Positions 3,211 through 57,230 of a stretch of 64,000 nucleotides of DNA are shown here, one piece after another. The notes below the pieces were generated by a model that did no database searches, was not told where the DNA came from, and saw only the letters and a program-made list of their open reading frames with translations. Position 1 is the stretch's first letter. Each line of letters opens with the position of its first letter. The stretch lies in assembly GCA_963827635.1 (NCBI GenBank), contig CAWHBV010000020.1:29318-93317 (forward strand), in the 5' to 3' direction. This stretch comes from an uncultured bacterium (GTDB taxonomy: Bacteria > Acidobacteriota > Aminicenantia > Aminicenantales > Saccharicenantaceae). The position numbers were made by a program, and so were the translations under genes.

Positions 3211-3466
3211 GGTTCCCTCCGATCTGAGATGTGTAAAGCCTGACATCCGGGATATGCGGGGATCGCTGGAGTTCGGCGCGCTTCACCTCCTGGGACGGGT
3301 TTCATGATACGGGAATTCGGGGGTTAGAGGCCGGGATTGAGGACGTAAGCCAGCCGGCTGGTCTGCCGGCGCCTGTCCCTCGAAGCCGAGATGACGATCA
3401 CTGTGATCCCGATTATGGGCGAAGCGAGAGGCGAATGTCAAGGGCGGAGGCCTCCCCGGCGCAGAT

Positions 3467-3499
3467 AAAAAAAGCCCCGGAAGGCAGGCCTTCCGGGGC
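3467..3499 (-). terminator. rho-independent terminator of TBDR-like copy 2
   Basis: Stem GCCCCGGAAGGC (3474-3485) / GCCTTCCGGGGC (3488-3499), with an A7 run at 3467-3473 (T7 on the minus strand). Confidence 0.8.
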
Positions 3500-3524
3500 T
3501 GAAGCGTCTGCGAGGAGCGAGGGC

Positions 3525-6275: not shown

Positions 6276-6311
6276 AAAGGCCTCCTTGCAGAAATGAATA
6301 GAGAGCCCGGA

Positions 6312-6341
6312 ATACTAACAAAAAAAGGGGGACCATGGCAA
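6312..6341 (-). promoter_or_regulatory. candidate sigma-70 promoter of TBDR-like copy 2
   Basis: The minus strand reads TTGCCA (6341..6336), an 18-nt spacer, then TAGTAT (6317..6312). It sits about 35 nt upstream of the start at 6275 and immediately downstream of the copy 3 terminator. Confidence 0.4.
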
Positions 6342-6342
6342 G

Positions 6343-6375
6343 AAAAAAAACCCCGGGCGGCCGGGCCGCCCGGGG
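6343..6375 (-). terminator. rho-independent terminator of TBDR-like copy 3
   Basis: GC hairpin CCCCGGGCGG (6351-6360) / CCGCCCGGGG (6366-6375), with an A8 run at 6343-6350 (T8 on the minus strand). The 25 nt between stop and hairpin are nearly identical to those of copy 2 (GAAGCGTCTGCG[A/G]GGAGCG[A/G]GGG). Confidence 0.8.
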
Positions 6376-6400
6376 CGAAGCGTCTGCGGGGAGCGGGGGA

Positions 6401-9151
6401 TCAGAAGATCAGCCGGAGGCCGACGCGGGCCTGCCGGGGCTGGCCGATGCTGTAGAGCTCGTGCCCGTCCGTGGAGGGGTAGTCGCCTTCGTTCCAGTCG
6501 TAGCCGATGCGCGTGCCCCAGGATGTGACGGTGTCGTCGTTGAAGACGTTGAAGATGTCGGCCATCACGCCCAGGCGGTACTTCCGGGCGATGGTGAAGA
6601 TCTTCTCCAGCCTCAGGTCGAGGACCTTGCGCATGGGGTAGTGGTTGGAGCCGCGCGGCTCGGTGAAGAAGGTGATCCGGCCCTGGTTGAACCGTCCCGT
6701 CCGGAGCTGGGTCGTCCAGGCGTTGCCCGTGATGCCCCGGAAGTAGGCGTTGAAGTTGATGTCGAAAGGCAGGACGTACGTGCCCTGGATCTTGATCATG
6801 TGGGTCGGGTCGTTGGTCAGGTTGCCCTGGCCGTTGATCCAGCCGTTGGGGTCGCTCTTGGTCCCGCCCCAGCCGATGTCGCCGCCGAAGCTGTTGTTCA
6901 CGGTCCCCGACGCCTTGCCGTAGACGTAGGAGGCCAGCAGCTGCCAGCGGCTGGAGAAGCGCTTGTTGAACAGGACCTCGATGCCCTCGTATGCGCGGTA
7001 GGGATCCAGGAGGACGTAGGGGTAGTCCGCGCCCTTCGCGAGGTTGGTGATGTAGTAGTTGACCGTTTCGAGAGATTCCTCGGTCCGCTCGTAGACGGTG
7101 AAGGTCTGGTCGAGGTCGGGCGAGTAGGCCGAAGCCTCCGTGTAGACGGCCGTGGTGTCGTAGCGGCCGATGAGGTCCTTCCACTTCCGGTGGATGTAGG
7201 TGACGCCCAACGAGGTGTCCTTGAAGAGCTCCCGTTCGATGCCGATCGTATACTGCTCCATGAAGGGGTGCTTGACGTCCGGGTCCATCACGTAAGGATT
7301 GGGCACAACGCGGAACATCTCGTACCATGCCTCGTCGAATTGGTCGTAGTAGTACCCGATGTAATCGCCGAAGTTCGAGATCGGGTTCATCTTGTCGTGG
7401 TAGGCGGTCAGCATGGCCTCGGTGAAGTGGCCGTAGTGGGCCTTGAGGACGGTCGTCTTGTCGCCCAGGATGTCGAAGGTGAAGCCCAGGCGGGGGGCCA
7501 GGCGGTTGGTCTTGAAGACCGTCCCGCTGCCGCCCTTGACGTCGCCCCAGTTCTGGCTGTAGCGCAGGCCCAGGCTGATGTTGAGCCGTTTCCCGATCTG
7601 CCAGGAATCCTGGAGAAAGGCTTCGAGCCGGGTGTAGCGGGTGTTCGTGTCGTAGCCCGAGTACTGGTAGGCCAGGTAGGGGCCCGTGTAGCCGTAGCTG
7701 TAGTAGTCGATGTACTTGACGTTGTCGCCAAGGTCCCCGCCCGTGCCCGTGTAGCCGTAGCGGCTCCGGGCCATGGACCGTTCGAATTCGGCCCCGAACT
7801 TGAACTCGTGGGAGCCGGCCAGGAAGTCCTCGGCGTAGTGGGTCAGGCTGACGTTGGTCCCGAACCGGGCCCGGTCGGCCCAATAGAAGTACCCGGCGCT
7901 GTCGAAGAGCATGTTGTCGTCGAGATTGAAATGCGAGTAGGTGTCGAAGCCGACCTCGGGATCGAGGTAGTAGATGCCCTCGAAGTAGTTGGTCTTGAGG
8001 TCGAAGAACGTCGTCGGGCTGAAGATCTTGGTCAGGTTGAAGCCGACCAGCCAGTCCGGCGAGTCCTGGGTGACCGTGGCTTCGGGGGAAGTCGTGGAGT
8101 CGGCGCCGCGGTTCGTGCCCTGGTACTTGGTCCGCTGGAACATGATGCTCATGTTCAGCGTCGGGGCCAGCTGGGAGGTCAGCTTGGCGAAGATGCGGGG
8201 CTGCTTGTAGTCGACGTCCTCCGGGAAGCCCGTCGGGCGGTTTTGGGTCCGGTAGAACTGGCCGCCGGCGTAGAACCAGAGCTTGTCCTTGACGACCGGC
8301 CCGCCCATGTGGGCGTTGATGTCCATCAGCTTCGAGGTCGGCGAGGTCAGGTCGGGGAAATCGTCGAGGTAGGCGGCGTTGTTCGTCGCCTGCCAGAACT
8401 TGGAATCGTCCCGGTAGCCCTGGAAGTTGAATTCGAAGTGGCCGGAGAACTCGTTGCCGCCGGACTTCGTCACCAGGTTGAAGATGACGCCGGTGAAGTT
8501 GCCGTACTCGGCCGGCAGGCCGACGCCCATGACCTTGGCCTCCTCGATGATGTTGTGGTCCGAGAAGACCCAGGCCGAGCCGGCCTCGGGGTCGGCCACG
8601 TTGACGCCGTCCATGGTGTAGGCGATGCCCGTGTTCTGGGAGGCGCCGTAGGCGACGTTGTTGGTGACGCCGGGGGCCAGGTTGACGATATCCGCCGTGA
8701 ACTGGTTGTAGGGGATGTTCCGGAGGATCTCGTTCGACAGCGTGACGGACGCCGTCTCGGTCGACTTGACGTCGACGGTCGGCGACTGGGCGACGACCGT
8801 GATCTCCTCGCTCACGGCCGAGGCCTTGAGCTGGATGTCGACGGCCAGCGTGGACGTGGTCGTCACGCGGATCTTCTCGCGGATGGCCGTCCCGAATCCC
8901 TGGAGCTCGGCCTTGATCTGGTATTCGCCGGGCGGCAGGGCCGGGAAGCGGAACTCGCCGTTGGCGTCGGTGACGAAGGTCCGGACGCCCATGAGGTTCG
9001 CGCCCGAGATCGTCACGTTGACGCCGGGCAGGGGGGCGTTCTGATCGTCCGTCACGACGCCGCCGACGGCGCCGGTGTCCCGGGATTGGGAGAACGCCAG
9101 GGGGGCGAGGAGGAGAACGATGGCCAAGAATGATAAGAACCCTTTTCTCAT
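6401..9151 (-). CDS. CarboxypepD_reg-domain TonB-dependent-receptor-like outer membrane protein, copy 3 (916 aa)
   Basis: Same length as copy 2 and offset from it by exactly 2876 bp; long identical peptide stretches. I chose the start at ATG 9151 (MRKGFLSFLAIVLLLAPLAFSQ), which has AAGGAGG upstream, rather than the track start at 9196. Confidence 0.85.
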   Translation of the reverse strand: MRKGFLSFLAIVLLLAPLAFSQSRDTGAVGGVVTDDQNAPLPGVNVTISGANLMGVRTFVTDANGEFRFPALPPGEYQIKAELQGFGTAIREKIRVTTTSTLAVDIQLKASAVSEEITVVAQSPTVDVKSTETASVTLSNEILRNIPYNQFTADIVNLAPGVTNNVAYGASQNTGIAYTMDGVNVADPEAGSAWVFSDHNIIEEAKVMGVGLPAEYGNFTGVIFNLVTKSGGNEFSGHFEFNFQGYRDDSKFWQATNNAAYLDDFPDLTSPTSKLMDINAHMGGPVVKDKLWFYAGGQFYRTQNRPTGFPEDVDYKQPRIFAKLTSQLAPTLNMSIMFQRTKYQGTNRGADSTTSPEATVTQDSPDWLVGFNLTKIFSPTTFFDLKTNYFEGIYYLDPEVGFDTYSHFNLDDNMLFDSAGYFYWADRARFGTNVSLTHYAEDFLAGSHEFKFGAEFERSMARSRYGYTGTGGDLGDNVKYIDYYSYGYTGPYLAYQYSGYDTNTRYTRLEAFLQDSWQIGKRLNISLGLRYSQNWGDVKGGSGTVFKTNRLAPRLGFTFDILGDKTTVLKAHYGHFTEAMLTAYHDKMNPISNFGDYIGYYYDQFDEAWYEMFRVVPNPYVMDPDVKHPFMEQYTIGIERELFKDTSLGVTYIHRKWKDLIGRYDTTAVYTEASAYSPDLDQTFTVYERTEESLETVNYYITNLAKGADYPYVLLDPYRAYEGIEVLFNKRFSSRWQLLASYVYGKASGTVNNSFGGDIGWGGTKSDPNGWINGQGNLTNDPTHMIKIQGTYVLPFDINFNAYFRGITGNAWTTQLRTGRFNQGRITFFTEPRGSNHYPMRKVLDLRLEKIFTIARKYRLGVMADIFNVFNDDTVTSWGTRIGYDWNEGDYPSTDGHELYSIGQPRQARVGLRLIF

Positions 9152-9247
9152 TAAGACCTCCTTTGCTTGTCTGAGGATCGAGCCTGCGGACGCCAAGGAT
9201 CGGGATGTGCCTCTACCGATTCACACCTCCTTGCTGAGCGGATATCC

Positions 9248-50065: not shown

Positions 50066-52273
50066 ATGAGCGCACGGGCCGACCGGGTCAAGGTCATCGA
50101 GCAGGCCGAGAAGTACGTCCGCGGCGGCCGGGTCCGGGAAGCCATCGCCGAGTACGAGAAGCTCGCGCTCGCCGATCCGCAGGACGTCGGGACGCTCAAC
50201 ATCATCGGCGACCTCTACATCCGGGCCGGACAGAACGACAGGGCCGTCCATTTCTTCCTCAAGGTCGCCGACGAGTACGAGCGGCGGGGGCTCTACTCCC
50301 AGGCCCTGGCCATCTGCAAGAAGATCCACCGTCTCTACCCCGACAACGCGGACTACGCGATCAAGCTGGCCGACCTCTACGCCCAGCAGGGCTTCGCCGC
50401 CGAGGGCAAGGCCGTCTACGCGGCCGTCGCCGGCCGGATGGCCGATGCGGGCCGGGCCGAAGAGGCCGCCGCGATCTACGAGAAGATCGTCAAGATCGAC
50501 CGGGAGGACCACGACGCGCGGAAGGCCCTGGCCGGCATCTACCGGGTCCTCGGCAACGTCGACGCGGCCCTCGAACACCTGAACGCCAGCGCCGACGTCC
50601 GCGTCGAGAAGGGCCAGTTCGAGGCCGCCGAGGCGGTCCTCCGCGAGGCCCTGACCGTCCGGCCCGGGGACGTCCGTACCCTGGCCGGCCTGGTCGAGGT
50701 CTTCAAGAAGCAGGGGCAGCCTACCCGGGCCGTCGCGCTCCTGGAGGGGGAGGTGGCCGCGGCCCCCGACAGCGTCCAGCTCCTCAACATCCTCGGCAAC
50801 ATCCACTTCGAGGCCGGGGAGACGAAGAAGGCGGAGGAGATCTTCACCCGGATCGTCACCGGCCACCCCCTCAACGTCAACGCCCGCATCAAGCTCGGAC
50901 GGATCCAGATCCTCAAGGACAAGCTCGACCAGGCCTACGAGCTCTTCGAGCCCCTGATCAACAACCTGGTCAAGAAGCACAAGGACGAGAAGGCCATCGG
51001 CCTGCTCGGGCTCATCCTGGAGAGCCAGAAACCCCACCTGCCGGCCCTGGAGCGCCTGGCCCTCATCTACCGGTCGAACAAAGAGGTCAAGAAGCTCGAG
51101 GTGGTGGACCGGGCCATCATCGACGAGCTGCGCAAGATCGGCGAGAAGGAGCGGATGGTCGGGATCTACAACGAGCTCGTCGAGCTGCGGCCCGACGACG
51201 CCGACCTCGTCCGGGAGGCCCAGGCCCTGCGCAAGGAGATGGGCCTCGTCGTCGAGGAGGTCCGGGACGAGACGCCCGGGCTCTCGGACAAGGACCGCGA
51301 GGCGATCCGCGAGGTCATGGACCAGGCCGACCTCTACCTCCAGCAGGGCCTCGTCCGGATCGCCCGCCGGCTCCTCGAGAACCTCCGTTTCCGCTATCCG
51401 GAAGATCCCCAGATCGTGAGGAAGATCGCCGTCATCGACGAGGTCCGGACGCACATGGACGAGGACGAGATCCGCCGCCGCGTCGAGAAGACCACCCTCC
51501 TCGAAGCGCAGATCAGGGAGAAGGCGGCCGGGAAGAAGGCGGAGGACAAGAAAGCCGTCGAGAAGGCCGCGGCCGCGAAGGCCGAGCCGGTCAAGGTCGA
51601 GGAGAAGGCGCCCGCGCCGGTCCCGCCCGAGCCGAGAAAGCCGGCCAACCCCTTCAAGAACGACGTCCTCGACGGCGAGAAGGTCAGCACCGCCGACATC
51701 TTCGCCGAGACGGACATCATCCCCTTCGTCAGCGAGAGCTCCGTCGCGCGGACCTACTACGACCTGGCGCGGGCGGTGGCCGAAGAGCTGCGCTGGATCG
51801 CCGCGATCCGGGACCGCCAGCTCCGGGGCGACGCCTCGCCGCTCGAACGGGAGCTCACGGGGATCGTCGCCGACTTCCGCAAGGACCTCAAGGCGCGGGG
51901 CGGCGCCCCGGATGCCGAGACCCATTACCAGCTCGGGCTGGCCTTCATGAGCCAGGGCCTGACCGTCGAAGCGGTCGAGGAGCTGACCCGCGCGGCCGAG
52001 GACAAGAAGCTGGCCGTCGAGAGCTACACCCTCATCAGCCAGTGCTTCCGGCAGAAGCGGAATTTCGACGAGGCCGCGAAGTGGATGAAGACGGCCATGG
52101 CCGAGACCAGGTCAGGCACCGATCCGTATTTCGCCCTCGTCTACGAGCTGGCGGAGATCCTGGAGGCGTCCGACGACCGGGCCGGCGCCGCGGCGCTCTA
52201 CCGCGAGATCCGCGACTGGAATCCCGGCTTCCGGAACGCCGCCGCCCGGCTCGAGAGCCTCGAAAAGCTCTAG
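50066..52273 (+). CDS. large TPR-repeat protein with a central Lys/Glu/Ala/Pro-rich linker (735 aa)
   Basis: Many TPR-like helical pairs (GDLYIRAGQNDRAVHFFLKVADEYERRGLYSQALAICKKI...). Linker AAGKKAEDKKAVEKAAAAKAEPVKVEEKAPAPVPPEP. C-terminal TPRs. Confidence 0.7.
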   Translation: MSARADRVKVIEQAEKYVRGGRVREAIAEYEKLALADPQDVGTLNIIGDLYIRAGQNDRAVHFFLKVADEYERRGLYSQALAICKKIHRLYPDNADYAIKLADLYAQQGFAAEGKAVYAAVAGRMADAGRAEEAAAIYEKIVKIDREDHDARKALAGIYRVLGNVDAALEHLNASADVRVEKGQFEAAEAVLREALTVRPGDVRTLAGLVEVFKKQGQPTRAVALLEGEVAAAPDSVQLLNILGNIHFEAGETKKAEEIFTRIVTGHPLNVNARIKLGRIQILKDKLDQAYELFEPLINNLVKKHKDEKAIGLLGLILESQKPHLPALERLALIYRSNKEVKKLEVVDRAIIDELRKIGEKERMVGIYNELVELRPDDADLVREAQALRKEMGLVVEEVRDETPGLSDKDREAIREVMDQADLYLQQGLVRIARRLLENLRFRYPEDPQIVRKIAVIDEVRTHMDEDEIRRRVEKTTLLEAQIREKAAGKKAEDKKAVEKAAAAKAEPVKVEEKAPAPVPPEPRKPANPFKNDVLDGEKVSTADIFAETDIIPFVSESSVARTYYDLARAVAEELRWIAAIRDRQLRGDASPLERELTGIVADFRKDLKARGGAPDAETHYQLGLAFMSQGLTVEAVEELTRAAEDKKLAVESYTLISQCFRQKRNFDEAAKWMKTAMAETRSGTDPYFALVYELAEILEASDDRAGAAALYREIRDWNPGFRNAAARLESLEKL

Positions 52274-53445
52274 AAGCCGAAGATCAAGCCCGTCCCCAAC
52301 CTCAGGTGTTCCCCGTAAAGCCCCCGGAAGGCGTATGTCGCCTCGGCCGTCACCCGGACGTTCCGCCGGAGGAGATAGCCGACGTGGGCCGTGGCCGCGG
52401 AGTAGCGGAGGTCGATCTGGTCGGAATCCACCCAGTTGAAGAGCCCGGCCCCGTACCAGCGGCTGTCGTCCCCCTTGGGCAGGTAGACGAGCTCGGCGAA
52501 GGCGCCCCGGGTCATGACCTTCTCGATGGGCAGGATGGTGGCGAAGTACGGGTTGGTGTCGCGCCGCTCGACGTACTGGACGTTGAGCTCGAAGGGCTTG
52601 ACCGAGAGCGTCGCGTCGCCGCCGTACATCGTGACCGAGTTGACGGTCTCGTCGGGCCGCTCCTTGCCCAGGAAGCCGAAGGCGCCGACGCGGAAAGCCG
52701 GGGCCACCTCCTGGGAGACGCGGAGGAGGACGTTCTTGTAGGGGTCGTCGTCGAAGCCGCGGAAGACGTTGGCCTCGCCGATGCCCGTGCCGTTGAGGAC
52801 CTCGAAGGTGACGTCGGTGCCGGTCGGGAAGCCGTAGGTCAGCATGACGCCGCGGTCGTAGGTCAGGTTGAGCCGGGAGTCGCCGGGCGTCACCCGGTAG
52901 ATCTGGTAGTCCTCGAAGGGCAGGCGGACCTCGCGCTTGAAGAGCGGATCGGAGACCTGGAACTGGCCGACGTAGAGGTCGAGGTCGGAGCCGAAGAGCT
53001 CGTTGAACATGACGAAGGCGTCCTCGATCCCGGCGACCTCGCCCCGCTCGCTGAGGAAGAAGTAGAAGTAGTAGGCGATGTTCTTGGCGATGGCCCCGCC
53101 CGAGAGGAACTTCAGGAGGTAGGGCGCGAGGAAATCCGTCTGGCGGACGTTGGCGTTGTTCCAGGCCAGGAAGCCCTCGAGGCGCAGGGCGATGGGGAGG
53201 TTCCGGAGAAGGGACAGGGACGCGTCGCCGGTGTCGATGGTGTCGCGCGGCGTGTCCTTGTCCTTGATGACGAACCCGTTCGCGGCGAATTCCTCGCCGT
53301 AGGGCTTGAGCTTGGGGAACGGCGCGTGGCAGGTCTTGCAGGACATGCTGTACTTGCGGGCGAAGGCGGGCATGGCCTGGAGGCTGCCGAGGGAGACCGC
53401 GGCGAGCAGCACGGCGGCGAAGGCGGTGCGCAGGATGTTCTTCAT
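52270..53445 (-). CDS. Cyc2-like fused monoheme cytochrome c / outer-membrane beta-barrel porin (391 aa)
   Basis: ATG 53445. Signal peptide MKNILRTAFAAVLLAAVSLGSLQA. A single CKTCH lies 13 residues into the mature protein (MPAFARKYSMSCKTCHAPFPKLKPYG). The remainder is strand-like and rich in Gly and aromatics, ending GTGLIFGF. Only the C-terminal half of track ORF 52270..54660 is used. Confidence 0.6.
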   Translation of the reverse strand: MKNILRTAFAAVLLAAVSLGSLQAMPAFARKYSMSCKTCHAPFPKLKPYGEEFAANGFVIKDKDTPRDTIDTGDASLSLLRNLPIALRLEGFLAWNNANVRQTDFLAPYLLKFLSGGAIAKNIAYYFYFFLSERGEVAGIEDAFVMFNELFGSDLDLYVGQFQVSDPLFKREVRLPFEDYQIYRVTPGDSRLNLTYDRGVMLTYGFPTGTDVTFEVLNGTGIGEANVFRGFDDDPYKNVLLRVSQEVAPAFRVGAFGFLGKERPDETVNSVTMYGGDATLSVKPFELNVQYVERRDTNPYFATILPIEKVMTRGAFAELVYLPKGDDSRWYGAGLFNWVDSDQIDLRYSAATAHVGYLLRRNVRVTAEATYAFRGLYGEHLRLGTGLIFGF

Positions 53446-53462
53446 GGCGTGGCGTTCCTTTC

Positions 53463-54833
53463 TCAGGGGGCGTCGTCGACGACCGTGACCGTCGTCGCAT
53501 GCCGGTTGACCTCGACGACCGCGGCCTCGTCCGGCGGGACGCCGAGGAAATCGGCGACGGGCTTGACCAGCTTCTGGTAGTTGAGGACGGCCGTGACCGT
53601 GAGCTCGCCGATGGCGACGCCGTCGGGGAGCCGGAAGGTGCAGGTCTCGAGCTTGGTCTCGCGCGGCCCGAGCCGGTAGTCCGTCCCCTGGGATTTCGTG
53701 TTCCACTGCTGGATGGTCATGCGGCCTTGGGGATCGAAGTAGGCCATGCGGAAGATGCGGTCGCCGACGGGAATGCCGTCCCGCTGGACCCCCTTGAAGG
53801 CGGGATCGTTCAGGGCGATGCCCATGTCCTGGTAGGCGAGCGTGTCGGCGCCGATGGTGTACTCCTCGCCGGCGAAGCCCTTCTTGTCGACGGGCAGATG
53901 GTAGACGGTGCCCTTGCTGTCCACGGCCTCGACGTGCATCCAGACGATGCGGTCCTCGACGGAACCGGAGGGGAACTTGTGGCCCGTCTTTTGGTTGAAG
54001 AGGGCGACCGTGAACTTGACCGGGTCGCCGGGCGCGGCCTCGCGGACGTCGGGGTGGATGCGGAGCTCGATCGTGCCCTTGACCTTCCCGTCGTCGTGGG
54101 CGCCGTGGAAGAGGTGCTGGCGGACGTCGGGGTAGGCGTTGCCCATGGCCGCCGACTTGCCCGGGGCGTAGGTCATGTGGCAGTCCTGGCACTTGACGCC
54201 CTGCTTGGCGTAGGGGCCCTCTTTCCACTCGAGGTGGGTCGACTTGACCCAGACGTTGTAGGGGCTCATCTCGTTGTGGCAGGTGCCGCAGAATTCGGCC
54301 GTGCCGAGGAAGTCCGACTTGGCCAGATTGTGCTCCGGCGAGTTCTTGCCCTCGCGCGGGCCGTACTTGGTCTTGCCCGGCGACGAGACGAAGTTGAAGT
54401 TGTAGGGCGTGTCGCCCGCGAAGCCGGTCACCGTGTGGCAGACCTCGCAGGAGACGGACTCGTTGGCCCGGCTGTTCTTGGACGGGAGGGGCGGCGGGAC
54501 GTCGCCGGCGAGAAAGGCGATGGGCGCGTGGCAGCCGTTGCAGCCGGCCTTGACCCCGGCGACGACGCTGTCCTTCTCGGCGTGGGGCACGGCCAGCTTG
54601 AAGTACTCGATCTCGTCCCAGTGGTGGGTGTAGGCCTGGGACATCATGGCCTGCTGCCACTGCCGGTAGATGTCGGTGTGGCAGGCCGTGCCGCAGAACT
54701 GCGGCGTCTGGTAGTCGCCGTACTTGCGCGTCCCGAGCGCGGCGTCCCCGGCCTTGGGCGCCTGGGCGGCGGCGAGGGCGAGGAAAAAGACGGCGGCGAA
54801 AACGAGCACGACGGGCATGGCGGATCGTCTCAC
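53463..54833 (-). CDS. secreted multiheme cytochrome c (four CXXCH + one CX3CH) with a non-heme C-terminal domain
   Basis: GTG 54833 four nt after GGAGAGGAGG. Signal peptide. Heme motifs CGTACH (CX3CH; codons TGC GGC ACG GCC TGC CAC checked), CNGCH, CEVCH, CGTCH and CQDCH. About 200 aa of beta-rich C-terminal region without Cys motifs. Confidence 0.8.
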   Translation of the reverse strand: MRRSAMPVVLVFAAVFFLALAAAQAPKAGDAALGTRKYGDYQTPQFCGTACHTDIYRQWQQAMMSQAYTHHWDEIEYFKLAVPHAEKDSVVAGVKAGCNGCHAPIAFLAGDVPPPLPSKNSRANESVSCEVCHTVTGFAGDTPYNFNFVSSPGKTKYGPREGKNSPEHNLAKSDFLGTAEFCGTCHNEMSPYNVWVKSTHLEWKEGPYAKQGVKCQDCHMTYAPGKSAAMGNAYPDVRQHLFHGAHDDGKVKGTIELRIHPDVREAAPGDPVKFTVALFNQKTGHKFPSGSVEDRIVWMHVEAVDSKGTVYHLPVDKKGFAGEEYTIGADTLAYQDMGIALNDPAFKGVQRDGIPVGDRIFRMAYFDPQGRMTIQQWNTKSQGTDYRLGPRETKLETCTFRLPDGVAIGELTVTAVLNYQKLVKPVADFLGVPPDEAAVVEVNRHATTVTVVDDAP

Positions 54834-54870
54834 GGGGCCTCCTCTCCGGGGGTCTCTTTGGTCCGGGCCT

Positions 54871-54898
54871 ATTCTATCAAAACGGCCCAGGCCGTCAA
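54871..54898 (-). promoter_or_regulatory. candidate sigma-70 promoter (extended -10) of the cytochrome operon
   Basis: The minus strand reads TTGACG (54898..54893), a 16-nt spacer ending TGA, then TAGAAT (54876..54871). About 38 nt upstream of GTG 54833. Confidence 0.55.
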
Positions 54899-54914
54899 TG
54901 TTCGGAATGTTCGG
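54897..54914 (-). repeat. tandem 9-nt direct repeat CCGAACATT x2 abutting and overlapping the -35
   Basis: The plus strand reads aatgttcgg aatgttcgg (54897-54905 and 54906-54914), a perfect duplication. Confidence 0.8.
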
Positions 54915-55058
54915 GGTCGGACCTCGGGATGTCTCTGTAAATAAACAATTTAATCGTTGAAAGTGCGCAATTTAGAGGCGTTTTTTGATGTTTTTATGGC
55001 CAAAAACATAAAAAGTGGATAAGAAGAAAAGGGACGAAAGCGGGGACAGATCTTGAAC

Positions 55059-55108
55059 GGGGACACGTCCCTCGGGCTACCCCGGAGGGCTCCGAGGGAC
55101 GTGTCCCC
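55059..55108 (-). terminator. perfect 17-bp hairpin downstream of the ECF operon (likely terminator)
   Basis: GGGGACACGTCCCTCGG (55059-55075) / CCGAGGGACGTGTCCCC (55092-55108) with a 16-nt loop. Begins 25 nt after the stop at 55133. A T-rich tract (CCCTTTTCTTCTT) follows further downstream on the minus strand. Confidence 0.6.
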
Positions 55109-55132
55109 GATCGAGAGGCCGGAGGGAAGTCC

Positions 55133-56129
55133 CTAGTCGACGATCTTGGCGGAGATGATGAGGATGAGCCCCTTGTCGCCGCCGTCGAGCTTGCTGACGC
55201 CGACGACCGTGCGGTCGCCCGATTTGATGTTGAGCGTGCTCTCGATCAAGGTGGTCACTTCGGTCTTGGCGACGGTCGGTTCCTCCTGGACGACGACCGC
55301 CACCTTAGGGTCCTTGAGGTACTTTCCCCCGAGGAGTTCGGTCAGCTTTTGAGCGACGCCTGCTTGGGTCAGCCCCGCGACATCGACCCGCCCGAGGAGC
55401 GGGACTGAGATCTGGCCGTCCTTGGCGACACGGACCGTCTTATTGAGATCGGGGACCTGGAAAACAGTTATATAGAGCAGGTCCCCAGGGCCGATCTTAT
55501 AAGTCGCCGTGGTTTTGTCGGATATCAGCGAATTGACCTGGATCTGACGCAGCCGGACCTCGGTCTTGATGACCGGCAGCTTGGCGTCCCCGGCGACATC
55601 CGGCTTGAGGTATGAGCTCGAATTCGGCCTTCGGGCCGAACTTGACCTCCGCACTCTCCCTGTTGATGGTGCGCACCAGCGTGACATCGAGAAGCGTGTA
55701 GCCCTTGAAACGGAGGAGCTTGCGGAGCTCCTTGACGATGGGGTCGGATTGGAGCTCGGCGTCGGTCGCGGCGTCGGCCTCCGAGCCCAGGACGAGCTGG
55801 ACCGTGTAGAGGACGTCGGCCGGCTTGACGTCGATCTCGCGGATGGCGGCCAGGATCTTCTCGACGTTCTCGGGCGTGTCGCTGACCGAAAGGACCGACG
55901 GCAGGTTGGGATTGAACTGGATGTGCCCGTCGCGGCTGACGTAGGCATAGAGCAGGTTCTGGATGTCCTGGGCCCGGACGTACTTGAGCTTGACGATCTC
56001 CTTGCGGAGGTTCTTAACTTCGTCTTTTTGGGCCTGCGCCGGCGTCACGGCCGGGTCCTCGGCGAAAGCCGGAACGACGACGGCCAGAGTGAACGCCAGG
56101 GCGAGCAGGGCGATCATTGTTCTTTTCAT
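55133..56129 (-). pseudogene. exported protein with secretin_N-like and Poly_export (Wza-like) domains, interrupted by one +1 frameshift (or sequence error)
   Basis: N-frame: MKRTMIALLALAFTLAVVVPAFA...KLKYVRAQDIQNLLYAYVSRDGHIQFNPNLPSVLSVSDTPENVEKILAAIREIDVKPADVLYTVQLV (secretin N-domain pattern). C-frame: YKIGPGDLLYITVFQVPDLNKTVRVAKDGQISVPLLGRVDVAGLTQAGVAQKLTELLGGKYLKDPKVAVVV (Poly_export pattern). The junction is about 55605-55625. Length is 997 nt = 3n+1. ATGA overlap with the anti-sigma stop. Confidence 0.6.
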
Positions 56130-56647
56130 TCCTGTTCTCCTTTGTAATCGAAATTCTTGTCGAGGAACCAGACGACCTGGAGCCCCGTTTCCTGCGAGAC
56201 CATGGTCATGGCCACGACGTCCTGTTCCCGGGCCGCGGCCGCCGGTTCGCCCGTCCGGCCGCCGGCCGCAAAGCGTCCCTCCGGGCGGGGGACCGGACCC
56301 CGGACGAGCACGCCGAGGACCACGAGCCCGACGAGGACTCCCGCGGCGGAAGCCGCGGCCCAGCCCGGCCATGGGGCCTGTCCTGCGTTCGCCGCTCCCT
56401 TTGCGCCGGTCCCGGCCTGCGCCGTCGCCCGGACCATCAGGGCCTTCCATTCGCCCTCGCTCCAGTCCGGGACGGCCTCTTCCTTGGCCGCCGCCTTGAT
56501 CCGGGCCAGGGCTTCCCGGAGCTCCCCGAGCTCGCGGCGGCAGGCCGGGCAGGCGTCGACGTGCGACCGGACCGCCCGCGTCCGGCGCGGCCCGAGGTCG
56601 TCACCGGCGAGAAGGGGCATGAGCTTGCGGACTTTGCGGCACGTCAT
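56126..56647 (-). CDS. anti-sigma factor (zf-HC2 type, single TM)
   Basis: MTCRKVRKLMPLLAGDDLGPRRTRAVRSHVDACPACRREL (H-x3-C-x2-C). TM segment WAAASAAGVLVGLVVLGVLV. The ATG overlaps the sigma-factor TGA (ATGA). Confidence 0.8.
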   Translation of the reverse strand: MTCRKVRKLMPLLAGDDLGPRRTRAVRSHVDACPACRRELGELREALARIKAAAKEEAVPDWSEGEWKALMVRATAQAGTGAKGAANAGQAPWPGWAAASAAGVLVGLVVLGVLVRGPVPRPEGRFAAGGRTGEPAAAAREQDVVAMTMVSQETGLQVVWFLDKNFDYKGEQE

Positions 56648-57230
56648 CGTCCTTCCTCCAGGTGGGGAAAATCGCGGCGCAGAACCTCGGCGAGCTTCCG
56701 GCGGGCCTTGGACAGATGGACACGGACGGCGATCGCCGAACACCCGAGCGCCCGGGCCGTCTCCGCGACGTCGAGGTCCTCGAGGTCCCGGAGCACCAGG
56801 ACCTCGCGCTCCCGGGGGCTGAGGACGGCGAGCGAGCGCAGGATGTCCGAACGGATCTCCTGCCTGTCGCGCTCCGCTTCGGGGCCCGTCGGCCGCCGAC
56901 CCGGCCGTCGCGGACGGCGCCCGTTCGACGACGTCCCCGAAGGCCGCCGTCTCCCGCGCCCTTTTCCGGTAACGGTCCCGGGCTTCGTTCGCGGCGATCT
57001 GGAAGAGCCAGTTCCGGAAGCTCCGGGAGGCGTCGTAGCCGGCCGAGCGAGCGGAAGGCCCGCAGGAGCGCCTCCTGGGCCACTTCCCGGGCGTCCTCGG
57101 CGTTGCGGGTCAGCCGCCAGGCCAGGCCCAGGAGGGGCCGCCGGTACGGTCCGACCAGCGGTTCGAACGCCTCAGTGTGACCGGCCAGGACCATGGCGAC
57201 GAGCTCCTTCTCCGTCTCGTTCATTCGCAT
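56644..57230 (-). pseudogene. ECF-type sigma-70 family sigma factor, interrupted by two +1 frameshifts (or sequence errors)
   Basis: Three frame segments read in order. First: MNETEKELVAMVLAGHTEAFEPLVGPYRRPLLGLAWRLTRNAEDAREVAQEALLRAFRSLG. Second: YDASRSFRNWLFQIAANEARDRYRKRARE... (region 2). Third: EAERDRQEIRSDILRSLAVLSPREREVLVLRDLEDLDVAETARALGCSAIAVRVHLSKARRKLAEVL (region 4). The junctions are at GGCCGGC (57038-57044) and at the C4 run (GGGG on the plus strand, 56881-56884). Length is 587 nt = 3n+2. Confidence 0.75.

What the first reader, a model, noticed from the sequence alone, without database searches (positions are those of the whole stretch)
52270..54833. Two-gene candidate trans-envelope electron conduit: secreted pentaheme cytochrome plus Cyc2-like monoheme cytochrome-porin fusion
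Two minus-strand genes lie 17 nt apart behind one strong promoter.

The first encodes a 456-aa secreted protein. It has four CXXCH motifs (CNGCH, CEVCH, CGTCH, CQDCH), one variant CX3CH (CGTACH, confirmed codon by codon) and a roughly 200-aa non-heme C-terminal domain.

The second encodes a 391-aa protein. It has a signal peptide, a single CKTCH 13 residues after the predicted cleavage site, and then only strand-like Gly/aromatic-rich sequence ending in ...GLIFGF (terminal Phe, as in OM beta-barrels).

Signal peptide + one heme + a porin of about 400 aa is the defining architecture of Cyc2-type fused cytochrome-porins, the outer-membrane Fe(II) oxidases of Acidithiobacillus, Zetaproteobacteria and Gallionellaceae. 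Pairing such a protein with a dedicated periplasmic multiheme partner in one operon, in an apparently Acidobacteriota-like genome, would make a compact and poorly characterised extracellular electron-transfer module. The direction of electron flow (Fe(II) oxidation or reduction of an external acceptor) cannot be told from sequence.
Basis: partly seen in the sequence, partly recalled or inferred. Interest (0 to 1): 0.78.

Follow-up and report, generated by a model that had tools for sequence, protein, structure and literature searches.

The report
Cyc2 cytochrome-porin with dedicated pentaheme partner
This two-gene operon encodes an outer-membrane pore with one built-in heme (a Cyc2-type protein, the usual marker for iron oxidation) and a five-heme periplasmic partner, and the same pair recurs in about 80 sediment-bacteria genomes from several phyla, so it is probably a compact but untested route for moving electrons across the outer membrane.

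Summary
Genes A (53463-54833, 456 aa) and B (52270-53445, 391 aa) lie on the minus strand, 17 nt apart, behind one sigma-70-like promoter, in a Candidatus Aminicenantes genome.

B meets every sequence and structure criterion published for Cyc2:
- a signal peptide;
- a single CKTCH;
- the AxPxFAR[Q/K][T/Y] motif (AMPAFARKY) and the PxL motif;
- a length above 365 aa;
- a confident 16-strand barrel whose best solved match is OprO.

A is a periplasmic pentaheme cytochrome of the PHC fold (five-heme cap plus Ig-like stem). It is homologous over its full length to the polysulfide reductase MccSep/ExtKL (hhalign E 9e-30). It lacks MccSep's heme-ligating Cys, and it has an invariant Ser where the catalytic Sec/Cys sits.

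The new result is the pairing. Of 80 species genomes carrying a close B relative, 78 have A immediately upstream. A and B co-vary, and A is always the better conserved. More distant Cyc2-like genes have no A next to them.

Cyc2 hits in Aminicenantes were already reported by FeGenie surveys. I found no description of the obligate PHC partner.

Function and direction of electron flow are inferred, not shown.

The parts
54871..54898 (-). Sigma-70-like promoter: TTGACG, 16-nt spacer, TG-n-TAGAAT.
   Evidence: the only match in 52000-55300, against 0.2 expected from shuffles. This is a consensus match, not a demonstrated promoter.
54838..54847 (-). Ribosome-binding site GGAGAGGAGG of gene A, 4 nt before the GTG start.
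   Evidence: Read from the sequence.
53463..54833 (-). Gene A: secreted (Sec signal, AQA|PK) periplasmic pentaheme cytochrome of the PHC fold, 456 aa.
   Evidence: hhalign against the MccSep family gives probability 99.85%, E 8.9e-30, over 375 columns. The closest solved structure by sequence is PDB 5ZE8 (E 5e-7 with the family profile).
54678..54695 (-). Heme-1 motif CGTACH (CX3CH).
   Evidence: Invariant in all 69 orthologues that are not truncated here. MccSep and T. tepidum c552 have CXXCH at this position.
54177..54542 (-). Stretch holding heme motifs 2-5: CNGCH 54528-54542, CEVCH 54435-54449, CGTCH 54276-54290, CQDCH 54177-54191.
   Evidence: The motifs are collinear with the five MccSep motifs.
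53961..53984 (-). Loop GHKFPSGS (aa 284-291), equivalent to the MccSep active-site loop GHSIPDGU. Ser291 replaces Sec325.
   Evidence: MAFFT and hhalign agree on this alignment. Ser291 is present in 74 of 74 orthologues.
53466..54086 (-). Non-heme C-terminal domain (about aa 250-456), homologous to the Ig-like stem of MccSep, with insertions of about 40 aa in total.
   Evidence: The description of the MccSep stem is from PMC13510729.
53446..53462 (-). 17-nt intergenic spacer carrying the AAAGGAA ribosome-binding site of gene B.
   Evidence: The median A-B spacer across 72 loci is 17.5 nt.
52270..53445 (-). Gene B: Cyc2-family fused monoheme cytochrome-porin, 391 aa.
53308..53376 (-). Cyc2 signature region: AMPAFARKY (53350-53376), CKTCH (53326-53340) and PKL (53308-53316).
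   Evidence: Matches the consensus in PMC8406198. All 80 orthologues carry the FAR-type motif with a single CXXCH. 76 of the 80 also match the strict pattern with PxL at +4; the other four have one extra residue before PKL.
52273..53193 (-). 16-strand outer-membrane beta-barrel (aa 85-391) ending in a C-terminal Phe.
   Evidence: AlphaFold2 secondary structure shows 16 strands, with pLDDT mostly above 90. Foldseek matches OprO, OmpT, OmpU, PorB and OmpF at E down to about 1e-11.

Best explanation
The operon encodes a two-component module that carries electrons across the outer membrane.

B is a Cyc2-family protein: a 16-strand outer-membrane porin whose N-terminal 60-residue segment binds one c-type heme. 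By analogy with characterised Cyc2 proteins, that heme exchanges single electrons with a small soluble redox species at the cell surface. The most likely species is Fe(II)/Fe(III).

A is its dedicated periplasmic partner: a soluble pentaheme cytochrome with a PHC fold (five-heme cap plus Ig-like stem). A takes the place that a small soluble periplasmic cytochrome c such as Cyc1 holds in the classical Cyc2 pathways of iron oxidisers. It would relay or buffer electrons between B's heme and an inner-membrane partner that is not encoded here.

On direction, I weakly favour inward flow, with Fe(II) or another external donor feeding the respiratory chain, over outward reduction, at roughly 55:45.

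Shown here: the architecture of both proteins, their family relationships, and the obligate co-inherited pairing. Inferred: A-B electron transfer, the substrate, and the direction.
For: B is Cyc2-type:
- It has the exact published motifs, a single heme motif and sufficient length.
- A 16-strand barrel is predicted with pLDDT 88.
- OprO is the top structural match, as published for Cyc2 of PV-1.
- Its profile is homologous to canonical FARQTG-type Cyc2 homologues.

A is a secreted five-heme protein:
- It is homologous end to end to MccSep/ExtKL and more weakly to T. tepidum c552.
- It has no lipobox, so it is probably soluble in the periplasm, as shown experimentally for MccSep.

A looks like an electron carrier rather than a MccSep-type enzyme:
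- The heme-2 Cys ligand (C239) has no Cys counterpart, and A has no conserved Cys outside its heme motifs.
- Sec325 is replaced by an invariant Ser291, and R83 by an invariant Asp73.
- Seven invariant or near-invariant His/Met residues outside the motifs (M64, H70, H168, H240, H246, H285, H312) are enough to six-coordinate all five hemes.

The pairing is real:
- A sits immediately upstream on the same strand in 78 of 80 species genomes from Aminicenantes, Ignavibacteria, Bacteroidota, Zixibacteria, Gemmatimonadales, Holophagae and others.
- The two exceptions are a contig edge and a locus that keeps a remnant of A's last codons.
- The median spacer is 17.5 nt.
- All 3 loci chosen through A have B downstream.
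- The A and B distance matrices correlate (Spearman 0.59; 0 of 300 Mantel permutations reach it).
- No third gene is conserved next to the pair.

Hints on direction:
- The three Cyc2 homologues with biochemical evidence (A. ferrooxidans Cyc2, Leptospirillum Cyt572, Mariprofundus Cyc2PV-1) all oxidise iron.
- A has Met64 where MccSep has the conserved non-motif His74, and 2 of 72 orthologues keep His there. From general knowledge, His/Met ligation raises heme potential.
Against: - There is no biochemical, expression or genetic evidence for this clade.
- No inner-membrane quinol-linked partner lies in the operon, in the 64-kb window, or conserved near the pair in other genomes.
- A is unusually well conserved for a simple electron carrier: mean pairwise identity is 68% against 55% for B, and A is the better conserved in 99.9% of genome pairs. 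Its nearest characterised relative is an enzyme.
- The structure model of A failed (pLDDT 46), so the heme ligation is inferred from alignments only.
- From general knowledge, the host lineages are mostly anaerobic or facultative organoheterotrophs and include iron reducers. That fits outward transfer at least as well as iron oxidation.
- The position of B's heme segment relative to the pore was not examined.
Confidence: 0.6

Rival explanations
1. A is the business end: a periplasmic multiheme enzyme with an active site remodelled from the MccSep template, acting on a small solute. B would mainly be its supply line, either importing the substrate through the pore or feeding or draining electrons through its heme. 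This would parallel the genetic linkage of ExtKL (MccSep) with the outer-membrane porin ExtI in Geobacter.
For: - A is homologous over its full length to a proven enzyme (PMC13510729).
- A is markedly better conserved than B.
- The loop equivalent to the MccSep active-site loop is invariant in the close A homologues aligned (G290-S291-V292-E293-D294-R295; Ser291 also in 74 of 74 orthologues). So are Asp73 (the R83 position) and Glu202.
- Position 200, next to the C239-equivalent site, varies between His, Gln, Val and Tyr. It is therefore not an obligate sixth ligand for heme 2.
- A PHC-family protein linked to an outer-membrane barrel also occurs in Geobacter extHIJKL.
Against: - Both hallmark catalytic residues of MccSep, the Cys ligand and Sec/Cys, are absent.
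- There are enough invariant His/Met residues to make all five hemes six-coordinate.
- B is not a plain porin: it keeps the full Cyc2 heme signature in all 80 orthologues.
- None of the Sec-type MccSep loci fetched contains a Cyc2-like gene, so the two contexts are distinct.
Confidence: 0.25
2. The same module runs outward. It would dispose of respiratory or fermentative electrons onto soluble extracellular acceptors such as chelated Fe(III), humic quinones or flavins in anoxic sediment. In this clade cyc2 would then not be a marker of iron oxidation. This is a variant of the best explanation with the direction reversed.
For: - Carriers include Ignavibacteriaceae and Melioribacter relatives, groups that surveys describe as Fe(III) reducers and that carry Cyc2 homologues. 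[quoted passage not shown]
- FeGenie itself flags cluster 3 Cyc2 as 'possible iron reduction', and Geobacter species carry cyc2.
- T. tepidum c552, a relative of A, is described as low-potential (title cited).
Against: - Every Cyc2 tested so far oxidises iron.
- The His-to-Met change in A suggests at least one higher-potential heme.
- Sequence alone cannot settle direction.
Confidence: 0.3
3. The pairing has no functional meaning. On this view B is a structural porin that happens to carry a heme motif, and A is an unrelated cytochrome that is merely adjacent.
For: None beyond the lack of experimental data.
Against: - The pair is adjacent in 78 of 80 genomes across several phyla, with a short spacer.
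- The two proteins have correlated divergence.
- The reciprocity check held in 3 of 3 loci.
- The heme motif is invariant in all 80 B orthologues.
Confidence: 0.02

Closest known systems
Cyc2 fused cytochrome-porins (A. ferrooxidans Cyc2, Leptospirillum Cyt572, Mariprofundus Cyc2PV-1; Keffer et al. 2021, PMC8406198; McAllister et al. 2020, PMC7029218)
   Same: B shares the signal peptide, the single N-terminal CXXCH, the AxPxFAR[Q/K][T/Y] and PxL motifs, a length of about 400 aa, and a predicted 16-strand OprO/OprP-like barrel. Its profile is homologous to canonical FARQTG-type homologues.
   Different: - B's clade has the FARKY variant of the motif.
- It occurs in Aminicenantes, Ignavibacteria, Bacteroidota and Zixibacteria rather than in classical iron oxidisers.
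- It is always preceded by a pentaheme PHC gene. In classical pathways the proposed partners are small soluble cytochromes such as Cyc1. The Ralstonia homologue is followed by a c4-like gene with two CXXCH motifs.
- Cluster 1/2/3 placement was not determined.
- Iron oxidation is untested.
MccSep / ExtKL (GSU2937-GSU2936), the pentaheme selenoprotein polysulfide reductase of Geobacter sulfurreducens (Mihara et al. 2026, PMC13510729)
   Same: A and MccSep share five collinear heme motifs, a C-terminal Ig-like stem, the GHx[IF]PxG loop, and secretion to the periplasm (shown for MccSep, predicted for A). hhalign gives E 8.9e-30 over 375 columns. NCBIfam NF040886 scores 1e-13, below its cut-off.
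   Different: - A has Ser291 in place of Sec325 and no Cys in place of the heme-2 ligand C239.
- Asp73 replaces R83, and Met64 replaces His74.
- Heme 1 uses CX3CH.
- A lacks the helical insert between hemes 2 and 3 and has extra insertions in the Ig domain.
- The equivalent of K372 is ambiguous: Asp336 by MAFFT, Thr379 by hhalign, and I read Lys380 by hand from the shared KS.
- The genomic context differs: a Cyc2-type gene here, against ExtH, ExtI and ExtJ in Geobacter.
PHC family as proposed for cable bacteria, Geobacter (ExtKL, Gsu2801) and Thermochromatium tepidum cytochrome c552 (PDB 5ZE8) (PMC11976967)
   Same: A shares the pentaheme domain plus Ig-like domain architecture. 5ZE8 is the only solved structure that A's sequence or family profile hits significantly (E 7.5e-6 and 5e-7).
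   Different: Similarity to 5ZE8 is weak. Neither c552 nor the cable-bacteria PHCs has a known function or a Cyc2 neighbour. Pairing of a PHC with a Cyc2-type porin is not mentioned in that paper.
Porin-cytochrome complexes of the MtrAB / PioAB / MtoAB and Geobacter Omb-Oma-Omc type
   Same: In both, an outer-membrane beta-barrel gene lies next to a periplasmic multiheme cytochrome gene, with a proposed role in extracellular electron transfer.
   Different: From general knowledge, those porins have about 20-26 strands and no heme of their own, and a deca- or octaheme cytochrome threads through the barrel. Here the barrel has 16 strands and carries its own heme. The partner is a 5-heme protein with a bulky Ig domain, which is unlikely to insert into the barrel.

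Membership tests
Cyc2 fused cytochrome-porin family (criteria of Keffer et al. 2021) | N-terminal signal peptide that directs export. | tested here: met
   The N-terminus MKNILRTAFAAVLLAAVSLGSLQA|MP is hydrophobic and ends in an AxA-type cleavage site. AlphaFold2 models residues 2-19 as a helix followed by a low-confidence linker at 20-26. No dedicated signal-peptide predictor was available.
Cyc2 fused cytochrome-porin family (criteria of Keffer et al. 2021) | Exactly one CXXCH, near the N-terminus of the mature protein. | tested here: met
   CKTCH at aa 36-40 is the only heme motif in B. All 80 orthologues have a single CXXCH.
Cyc2 fused cytochrome-porin family (criteria of Keffer et al. 2021) | AxPxFAR[Q/K][T/Y] motif just upstream of CXXCH, and PxL just downstream. 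| tested here: met
   B has A24-M-P-A-F-A-R-K-Y32, then SMS, then CKTCH, then APF, then P44-K-L46 (criteria). 76 of 80 orthologues match a strict pattern, and the other four have one extra residue before PKL.
Cyc2 fused cytochrome-porin family (criteria of Keffer et al. 2021) | Length of at least 365 aa, with a C-terminal 16-strand porin that is structurally OprO/OprP-like. | tested here: met
   B is 391 aa. DSSP on the AlphaFold2 model (pLDDT 88, pTM 0.84) gives 16 strands between residues 85 and 390. The Foldseek top hit is OprO 4RJW at E 1.3e-11.
Cyc2 fused cytochrome-porin family (criteria of Keffer et al. 2021) | Detectable homology to accepted Cyc2 sequences, or a FeGenie Cyc2 HMM hit above its cut-off, with assignment to cluster 1, 2 or 3. 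| tested here: inconclusive
   - hhalign of B's family against Ralstonia and Paraburkholderia FARQTG-type homologues gives probability 98%, E 1.8e-13, over 341 columns. Keffer et al. name these genera as Cyc2-bearing.
- BLASTP similarity is confined mostly to the heme segment (E 2e-12).
- The FeGenie HMMs and the sequences of the three biochemically tested Cyc2 proteins were not available, so cluster placement is unknown.
Cyc2 fused cytochrome-porin family (criteria of Keffer et al. 2021) | Fe(II) oxidase activity and outer-membrane localisation of the holo-protein. | not testable with these tools
   This needs heme staining, fractionation and redox assays.
MccSep multiheme seleno/cysteine polysulfide reductase family (Mihara et al. 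2026) | [quoted passage not shown] | tested here: met
   The five motifs are collinear with MccSep's and the C-terminal domain is homologous. Heme 1 uses CX3CH instead of CXXCH.
MccSep multiheme seleno/cysteine polysulfide reductase family (Mihara et al. 2026) | Conserved Sec/Cys (U325) in the GHxIPDG[U/C]P loop. | tested here: not met
   A has Ser291 at this position in both the MAFFT and the hhalign alignments. Ser is present in 74 of 74 orthologues.
MccSep multiheme seleno/cysteine polysulfide reductase family (Mihara et al. 2026) | [quoted passage not shown] | tested here: not met
   C239 aligns with Leu201 in MAFFT and with a gap in hhalign. A has no conserved Cys outside its heme motifs.
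MccSep multiheme seleno/cysteine polysulfide reductase family (Mihara et al. 2026) | NCBIfam NF040886 (ExtKL) score above the curated cut-off. | tested here: not met
   The score is 50.5 bits against a cut-off of 250.
MtrAB-type porin-cytochrome complex | A large heme-free barrel (20 or more strands) enclosing a multiheme (8-10 or more hemes) periplasmic cytochrome. | tested here: not met
   B's barrel has 16 strands and its own heme. A has five hemes plus an Ig-like domain. Pfam and NCBIfam hits to MtrC, DmsE and GSU2203 are all far below their cut-offs.

The most novel reading that the evidence does not exclude
This Cyc2 subclade, together with its PHC partner, would be a distinct and horizontally mobile two-gene extracellular electron-exchange cassette of anaerobic sediment heterotrophs such as Aminicenantes, Ignavibacteria, Bacteroidota and Zixibacteria.

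In this reading the PHC protein is not a passive relay. It would be either a remodelled catalytic or metal-handling cytochrome built on the MccSep active-site scaffold with changed chemistry (Cys and Sec lost; Arg83 replaced by Asp), or an oligomeric periplasmic wire.

Either way, 'cyc2' hits in these lineages would report a process other than classical lithotrophic iron oxidation.
Probability: 0.2. Interest if true: 0.8.

Novelty: new variant of a known kind. Interest (0 to 1): 0.55.

Why it matters
Metagenomic surveys use cyc2 as the marker gene for microbial iron oxidation, for example through FeGenie. Those surveys have already labelled Aminicenantes and Ignavibacteria as putative iron oxidisers on the strength of this gene.

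This clade of cyc2 always travels with a strongly conserved pentaheme partner related to a sulfur-reducing enzyme, and it sits in lineages better known as fermenters and iron reducers. That raises a concrete question about what these abundant sediment bacteria do with it.

It also defines the smallest porin-cytochrome module known so far: six hemes, two genes, and no other conserved neighbour.

The question is testable, because a cultured isolate (Rosettibacter primus) and genomes assigned to two cultured species (Melioribacter roseus and Ignavibacterium album) carry the pair.

Tried and rejected
- Pfam and NCBIfam on B gave nothing usable: BBP2 at E 0.006 and omptin at E 0.03. Neither library returned a Cyc2-specific hit.
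- The PDB sequence search with B gave nothing.
- AlphaFold2 on A with a shallow alignment (all sequences at least 74% identical) failed, with pLDDT 46.
- A PDB search with A's C-terminal domain alone returned only chance BamA hits.
A narrower alignment worked.
- I tried to obtain sequences of the biochemically tested Cyc2 proteins. The supplements of Keffer et al. hold none. Cluster-member names for distant representatives were uninformative.
- The supplements of the MccSep paper are not held. I recovered MccSep-type sequences from a metagenome DNA-pattern scan built on the published Sec peptide.
- The MAFFT mapping of MccSep K372 to Asp336, and the 'charge-reversed pocket' idea built on it, was downgraded. 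hhalign and the shared GDR...KS anchors place K372 at or next to Lys380. Only R83 to Asp73 is consistent between methods.
- A sigma-54 promoter upstream of A was rejected as a general feature. Some loci have neighbouring sigma-54 activators or histidine kinases, but only 3 of 72 loci have a -24/-12 match and the window has none.
- The Melioribacter roseus multi-omics paper does not mention these genes.
- Exact-sequence contig look-up of B and of its 100%-identical database entry returned nothing.
- A classical MtrAB-like complex was rejected on strand number and heme count.

Full report
**1.

On the minus strand, ORF A runs 53463..54833 (456 aa) and ORF B runs 52270..53445 (391 aa). A's TGA stop and B's ATG are 17 nt apart.

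A carries CGTACH, CNGCH, CEVCH, CGTCH and CQDCH, followed by about 235 residues with no heme motif. B carries a single CKTCH at residues 36-40. That is twelve residues after a plausible SLQA|MP signal-peptide cleavage site. B ends in ...GLIFGF.

The 300-nt AT-rich region upstream of A holds the only sigma-70-like match in the area: TTGACG, a 16-nt spacer, then TG-n-TAGAAT, at 54898..54871. Shuffled sequence gives 0.2 such matches.

A 25-nt-arm inverted repeat at 55051-55116 separates the operon from the upstream gene. A convergent TPR gene (50066..52273) abuts B's stop codon. The pair is therefore a self-contained transcription unit.

These are the only two ORFs with c-type heme motifs in the 64-kb window. 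The rest of the window is housekeeping and heterotroph-type genes: Ddl, PPDK, Ffh, biotin carboxylase, TonB-dependent-like outer-membrane proteins and a FadL-like transporter.

Named homologues place the window in Candidatus Aminicenantes.

**2. What B is**

Pfam and NCBIfam returned no Cyc2-specific hit, only weak chance-level matches. I therefore tested the criteria Keffer et al. 2021 give for recognising Cyc2 (PMC8406198):
- a signal peptide;
- one CXXCH;
- an AxPxFAR[Q/K][T/Y] motif just upstream and a PxL motif just downstream;
- at least 365 residues;
- a 16-strand porin with OprO/OprP-like structure.

B reads ...A-M-P-A-F-A-R-K-Y-SMS-CKTCH-APF-P-K-L..., an exact match.

AlphaFold2 with a 48-sequence alignment gave pLDDT 88 and pTM 0.84. 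It shows 16 beta-strands between residues 85 and 390, preceded by a small helical heme segment. Foldseek against the PDB puts OprO (4RJW) first at E 1.3e-11, followed by other 16-strand general porins. OprO is one of the two porin structures (with OprP) that Keffer et al. matched to Cyc2PV-1.

An exhaustive HMMER search found 1,667 cluster representatives at E up to 1e-3. All full-length ones listed carry the IPAFAR(K/Q)Y...C..CH signature.

A tblastn search of plasmids recovered canonical 'AVPAFARQTGMACMACH...PEL' genes on a Ralstonia solanacearum megaplasmid and a Paraburkholderia plasmid. Profile-profile comparison of B's family with these gives probability 98% and E 1.8e-13 over 341 columns, that is, over the barrel as well as the heme segment.

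I could not run the FeGenie HMMs, and I could not obtain the three biochemically tested Cyc2 sequences. Cluster placement therefore stays open.

**3. What A is**

A has a Sec-type signal peptide (AQA|PK) and no lipobox. Family hits are weak and generic: c554, NapC/NirT and c7. The informative ones are:
- NCBIfam NF040886 'multiheme c-type cytochrome (seleno)protein ExtKL', at E 1e-13 but far below its cut-off;
- PDB 5ZE8, the pentaheme cytochrome c552 of Thermochromatium tepidum.

ExtKL was characterised in 2026 as MccSep, a periplasmic tetrameric polysulfide reductase. It has a five-heme helical cap and an Ig-like stem. Its active site combines a Cys239-ligated heme 2 with Sec325, plus R83 and K372 (PMC13510729). 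A 2025 paper groups ExtKL, Gsu2801, T. tepidum c552 and cable-bacteria proteins into a 'PHC family' (PMC11976967).

This returned at least 120 loci; of the 80 I parsed, 46 gave complete read-through ORFs with five heme motifs.

The comparison of A with these sequences shows:
- tblastn of A against the loci gives E down to 6e-15.
- hhalign of the two families gives probability 99.85% and E 8.9e-30 over 375 columns.
- The five heme motifs and the C-terminal domain are collinear.

The catalytic equipment, however, is not retained:
- Sec325 aligns with Ser291, within GHKFPSGS against GHSIPDGU. Both alignment methods agree, and Ser is present in 74 of 74 orthologues.
- Cys239 aligns with Leu201 (MAFFT) or with a gap (hhalign), and A has no conserved non-motif Cys.
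- R83 aligns with an invariant Asp73.
- The equivalent of K372 is ambiguous: Asp336 by MAFFT, Thr379 by hhalign, and I read Lys380 by hand from the shared KS.

A also has its own signatures:
- an invariant CX3CH at heme 1;
- Met64 where MccSep has the conserved His74 (2 of 72 orthologues keep His);
- enough invariant His/Met residues (M64, H70, H168, H240, H246, H285, H312) to six-coordinate all five hemes.

The AlphaFold2 model of A was unusable (pLDDT 46), so the ligation is inferred from alignments only.

**4. The pairing is the real finding**

A scan of one genome per GTDB species found 589 relatives of B, and the best 80 loci were kept. They come from:
- Aminicenantes, including Ca. Saccharicenans;
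- many Ignavibacteria, including genomes assigned to Ignavibacterium album and Melioribacter roseus and the isolate Rosettibacter primus;
- Bacteroidota, Zixibacteria, Gemmatimonadales, Holophagae, Kapabacteria and Glassbacteria.

An A homologue lies immediately upstream on the same strand in 78 of the 80 loci. One exception starts at a contig edge. The other (L045) still has the last roughly 15 codons of A in front of B, so A was lost secondarily there.

Further measures of the pairing:
- The median spacer is 17.5 nt.
- No third gene is conserved next to the pair. Histidine kinases or sigma-54 activators flank it in some Ignavibacteria, but a -24/-12 promoter is not general.
- All three loci chosen through A rather than B have B downstream.
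- Pairwise identity matrices of A and B correlate (Spearman 0.59; 0 of 300 Mantel permutations reach it).
- A is the better conserved in 99.9% of genome pairs, with mean identity 68% against 55%.
- Six more distant Cyc2-like representatives, 32-41% identical to B, have no A-like neighbour. The Ralstonia homologue is followed by a c4-like gene with two CXXCH motifs. None of the MccSep loci fetched contains a Cyc2-like gene.

The pairing therefore defines one subclade of Cyc2 and one subclade of PHC proteins.

**5. Mechanism**

The best-supported reading (confidence about 0.6) is a two-component outer-membrane electron module. In it, B's porin-embedded heme exchanges electrons with a soluble external redox species, most plausibly iron. 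A is the dedicated periplasmic relay or buffer, taking the role proposed for small soluble cytochromes such as Cyc1 in classical Cyc2 pathways. The inner-membrane partner is encoded elsewhere.

Direction cannot be read from sequence. I lean slightly towards inward flow for two reasons. Every Cyc2 with biochemical evidence oxidises iron. The His-to-Met ligand change in A also suggests a higher-potential heme.

The ecology of the carriers keeps outward transfer nearly as likely, because they are anaerobic or facultative heterotrophs and include iron reducers.

The main rival (about 0.25) is that A is a catalytic cytochrome with a remodelled MccSep-type site and B serves it. The arguments for it are A's unusual conservation, the invariant remodelled loop, and the variable residue at position 200 beside the lost Cys ligand.

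**6. Comparison with what is known, and novelty**

B is a member of the Cyc2 family by every testable published criterion.

A is a member of the broad PHC fold family. It is not a member of the MccSep enzyme family, because two of that family's defining features were tested and not met.

The module is not an MtrAB-type porin-cytochrome complex. Its barrel has 16 strands and carries its own heme, and the partner has only five hemes.

Cyc2 hits in Aminicenantes and Ignavibacteriaceae are already published from FeGenie-type surveys (PMC7005843; Bothnian Sea bioreactor study; PMC6344600).

Among the papers I could search, I found no description of the conserved PHC partner or of this Cyc2 subclade as a two-gene cassette. 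That search covers open-access papers only.

I rate this a new variant of a known kind, with interest 0.55. It is not categorically new. It is widespread, sharply defined and testable in cultured strains, and it bears directly on how cyc2 is used as an iron-oxidation marker.

Noticed in passing
window 55051-55116: An inverted repeat with 25-nt arms (92% complementary, 16-nt loop) lies just downstream of the gene that ends at 55133. It has no T-run. It could be a terminator or a REP-like element insulating the A-B operon.
   Followed up: partly
window 54897-54914 and 54983-55014: A tandem 9-mer, AATGTTCGG twice, overlaps the -35 hexamer of the operon promoter. An AT-rich 13-nt-arm palindrome lies about 90-120 nt upstream of it. 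Both are candidate operator sites for an unknown regulator.
   Followed up: no
window 55133-56450 (-): Two overlapping ORFs lie in different frames. One has a Secretin_N domain (55497-56165) and the other a Poly_export domain (55133-55948). This may be a single gene with a frameshift, or a sequencing error.
   Followed up: no
window 56126-57230 (-): An ECF-type sigma factor (Sigma70_r2) and a zf-HC2 anti-sigma factor lie upstream on the same strand as the cytochrome operon. No link to the operon is established, and this upstream side did not appear among the neighbour-gene families conserved across related loci.
   Followed up: partly
window 440-9196 (-): Three tandem paralogous outer-membrane genes carry CarboxypepD_reg plus OMP_b-brl_4 / TonB-dependent-like barrels. 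The first appears split or truncated (440-1768 and 1950-3074).
   Followed up: no
L045 5923-7149 (Ignavibacteria bacterium RIFOXYB12_FULL_35_14): This is the only complete locus without A. The reading frame in front of B still encodes ...ESEIIKVNKHTTSL, the C-terminal tail of A, so A was deleted secondarily. A histidine-kinase-like gene now sits upstream.
   Followed up: partly
L208 2917-4916 (Ralstonia solanacearum CFBP2957 megaplasmid); L209 2893-4278 (Paraburkholderia phytofirmans pOLGA1): Both carry canonical Cyc2-type genes (AVPAFARQTGMACMACH...PEL, 446-461 aa). The gene is unannotated in the PLSDB table for Ralstonia. In pOLGA1 the annotated 'cytochrome C' CDS starts downstream of the heme motif, so it is probably mis-started. 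The Ralstonia gene is followed by a cytochrome gene with two CXXCH motifs.
   Followed up: partly
L088-L207 (JGI/ENA metagenome contigs): Sec-type MccSep genes (AGHxIPDG-UGA-P with five CxxCH) are very common in sediment and aquifer metagenomes. L137 appears to hold two paralogous copies.
   Followed up: partly
L211 1565-2956; L212 1450-2874; about 14-16 Ignavibacteria loci among L001-L080: A histidine kinase and/or a GAF-plus-sigma-54 activator (NtrC/NorR-like) flanks the A-B pair in several Ignavibacteria and other lineages. A -24/-12 promoter is found upstream of A in only 3 of 72 loci.
   Followed up: partly
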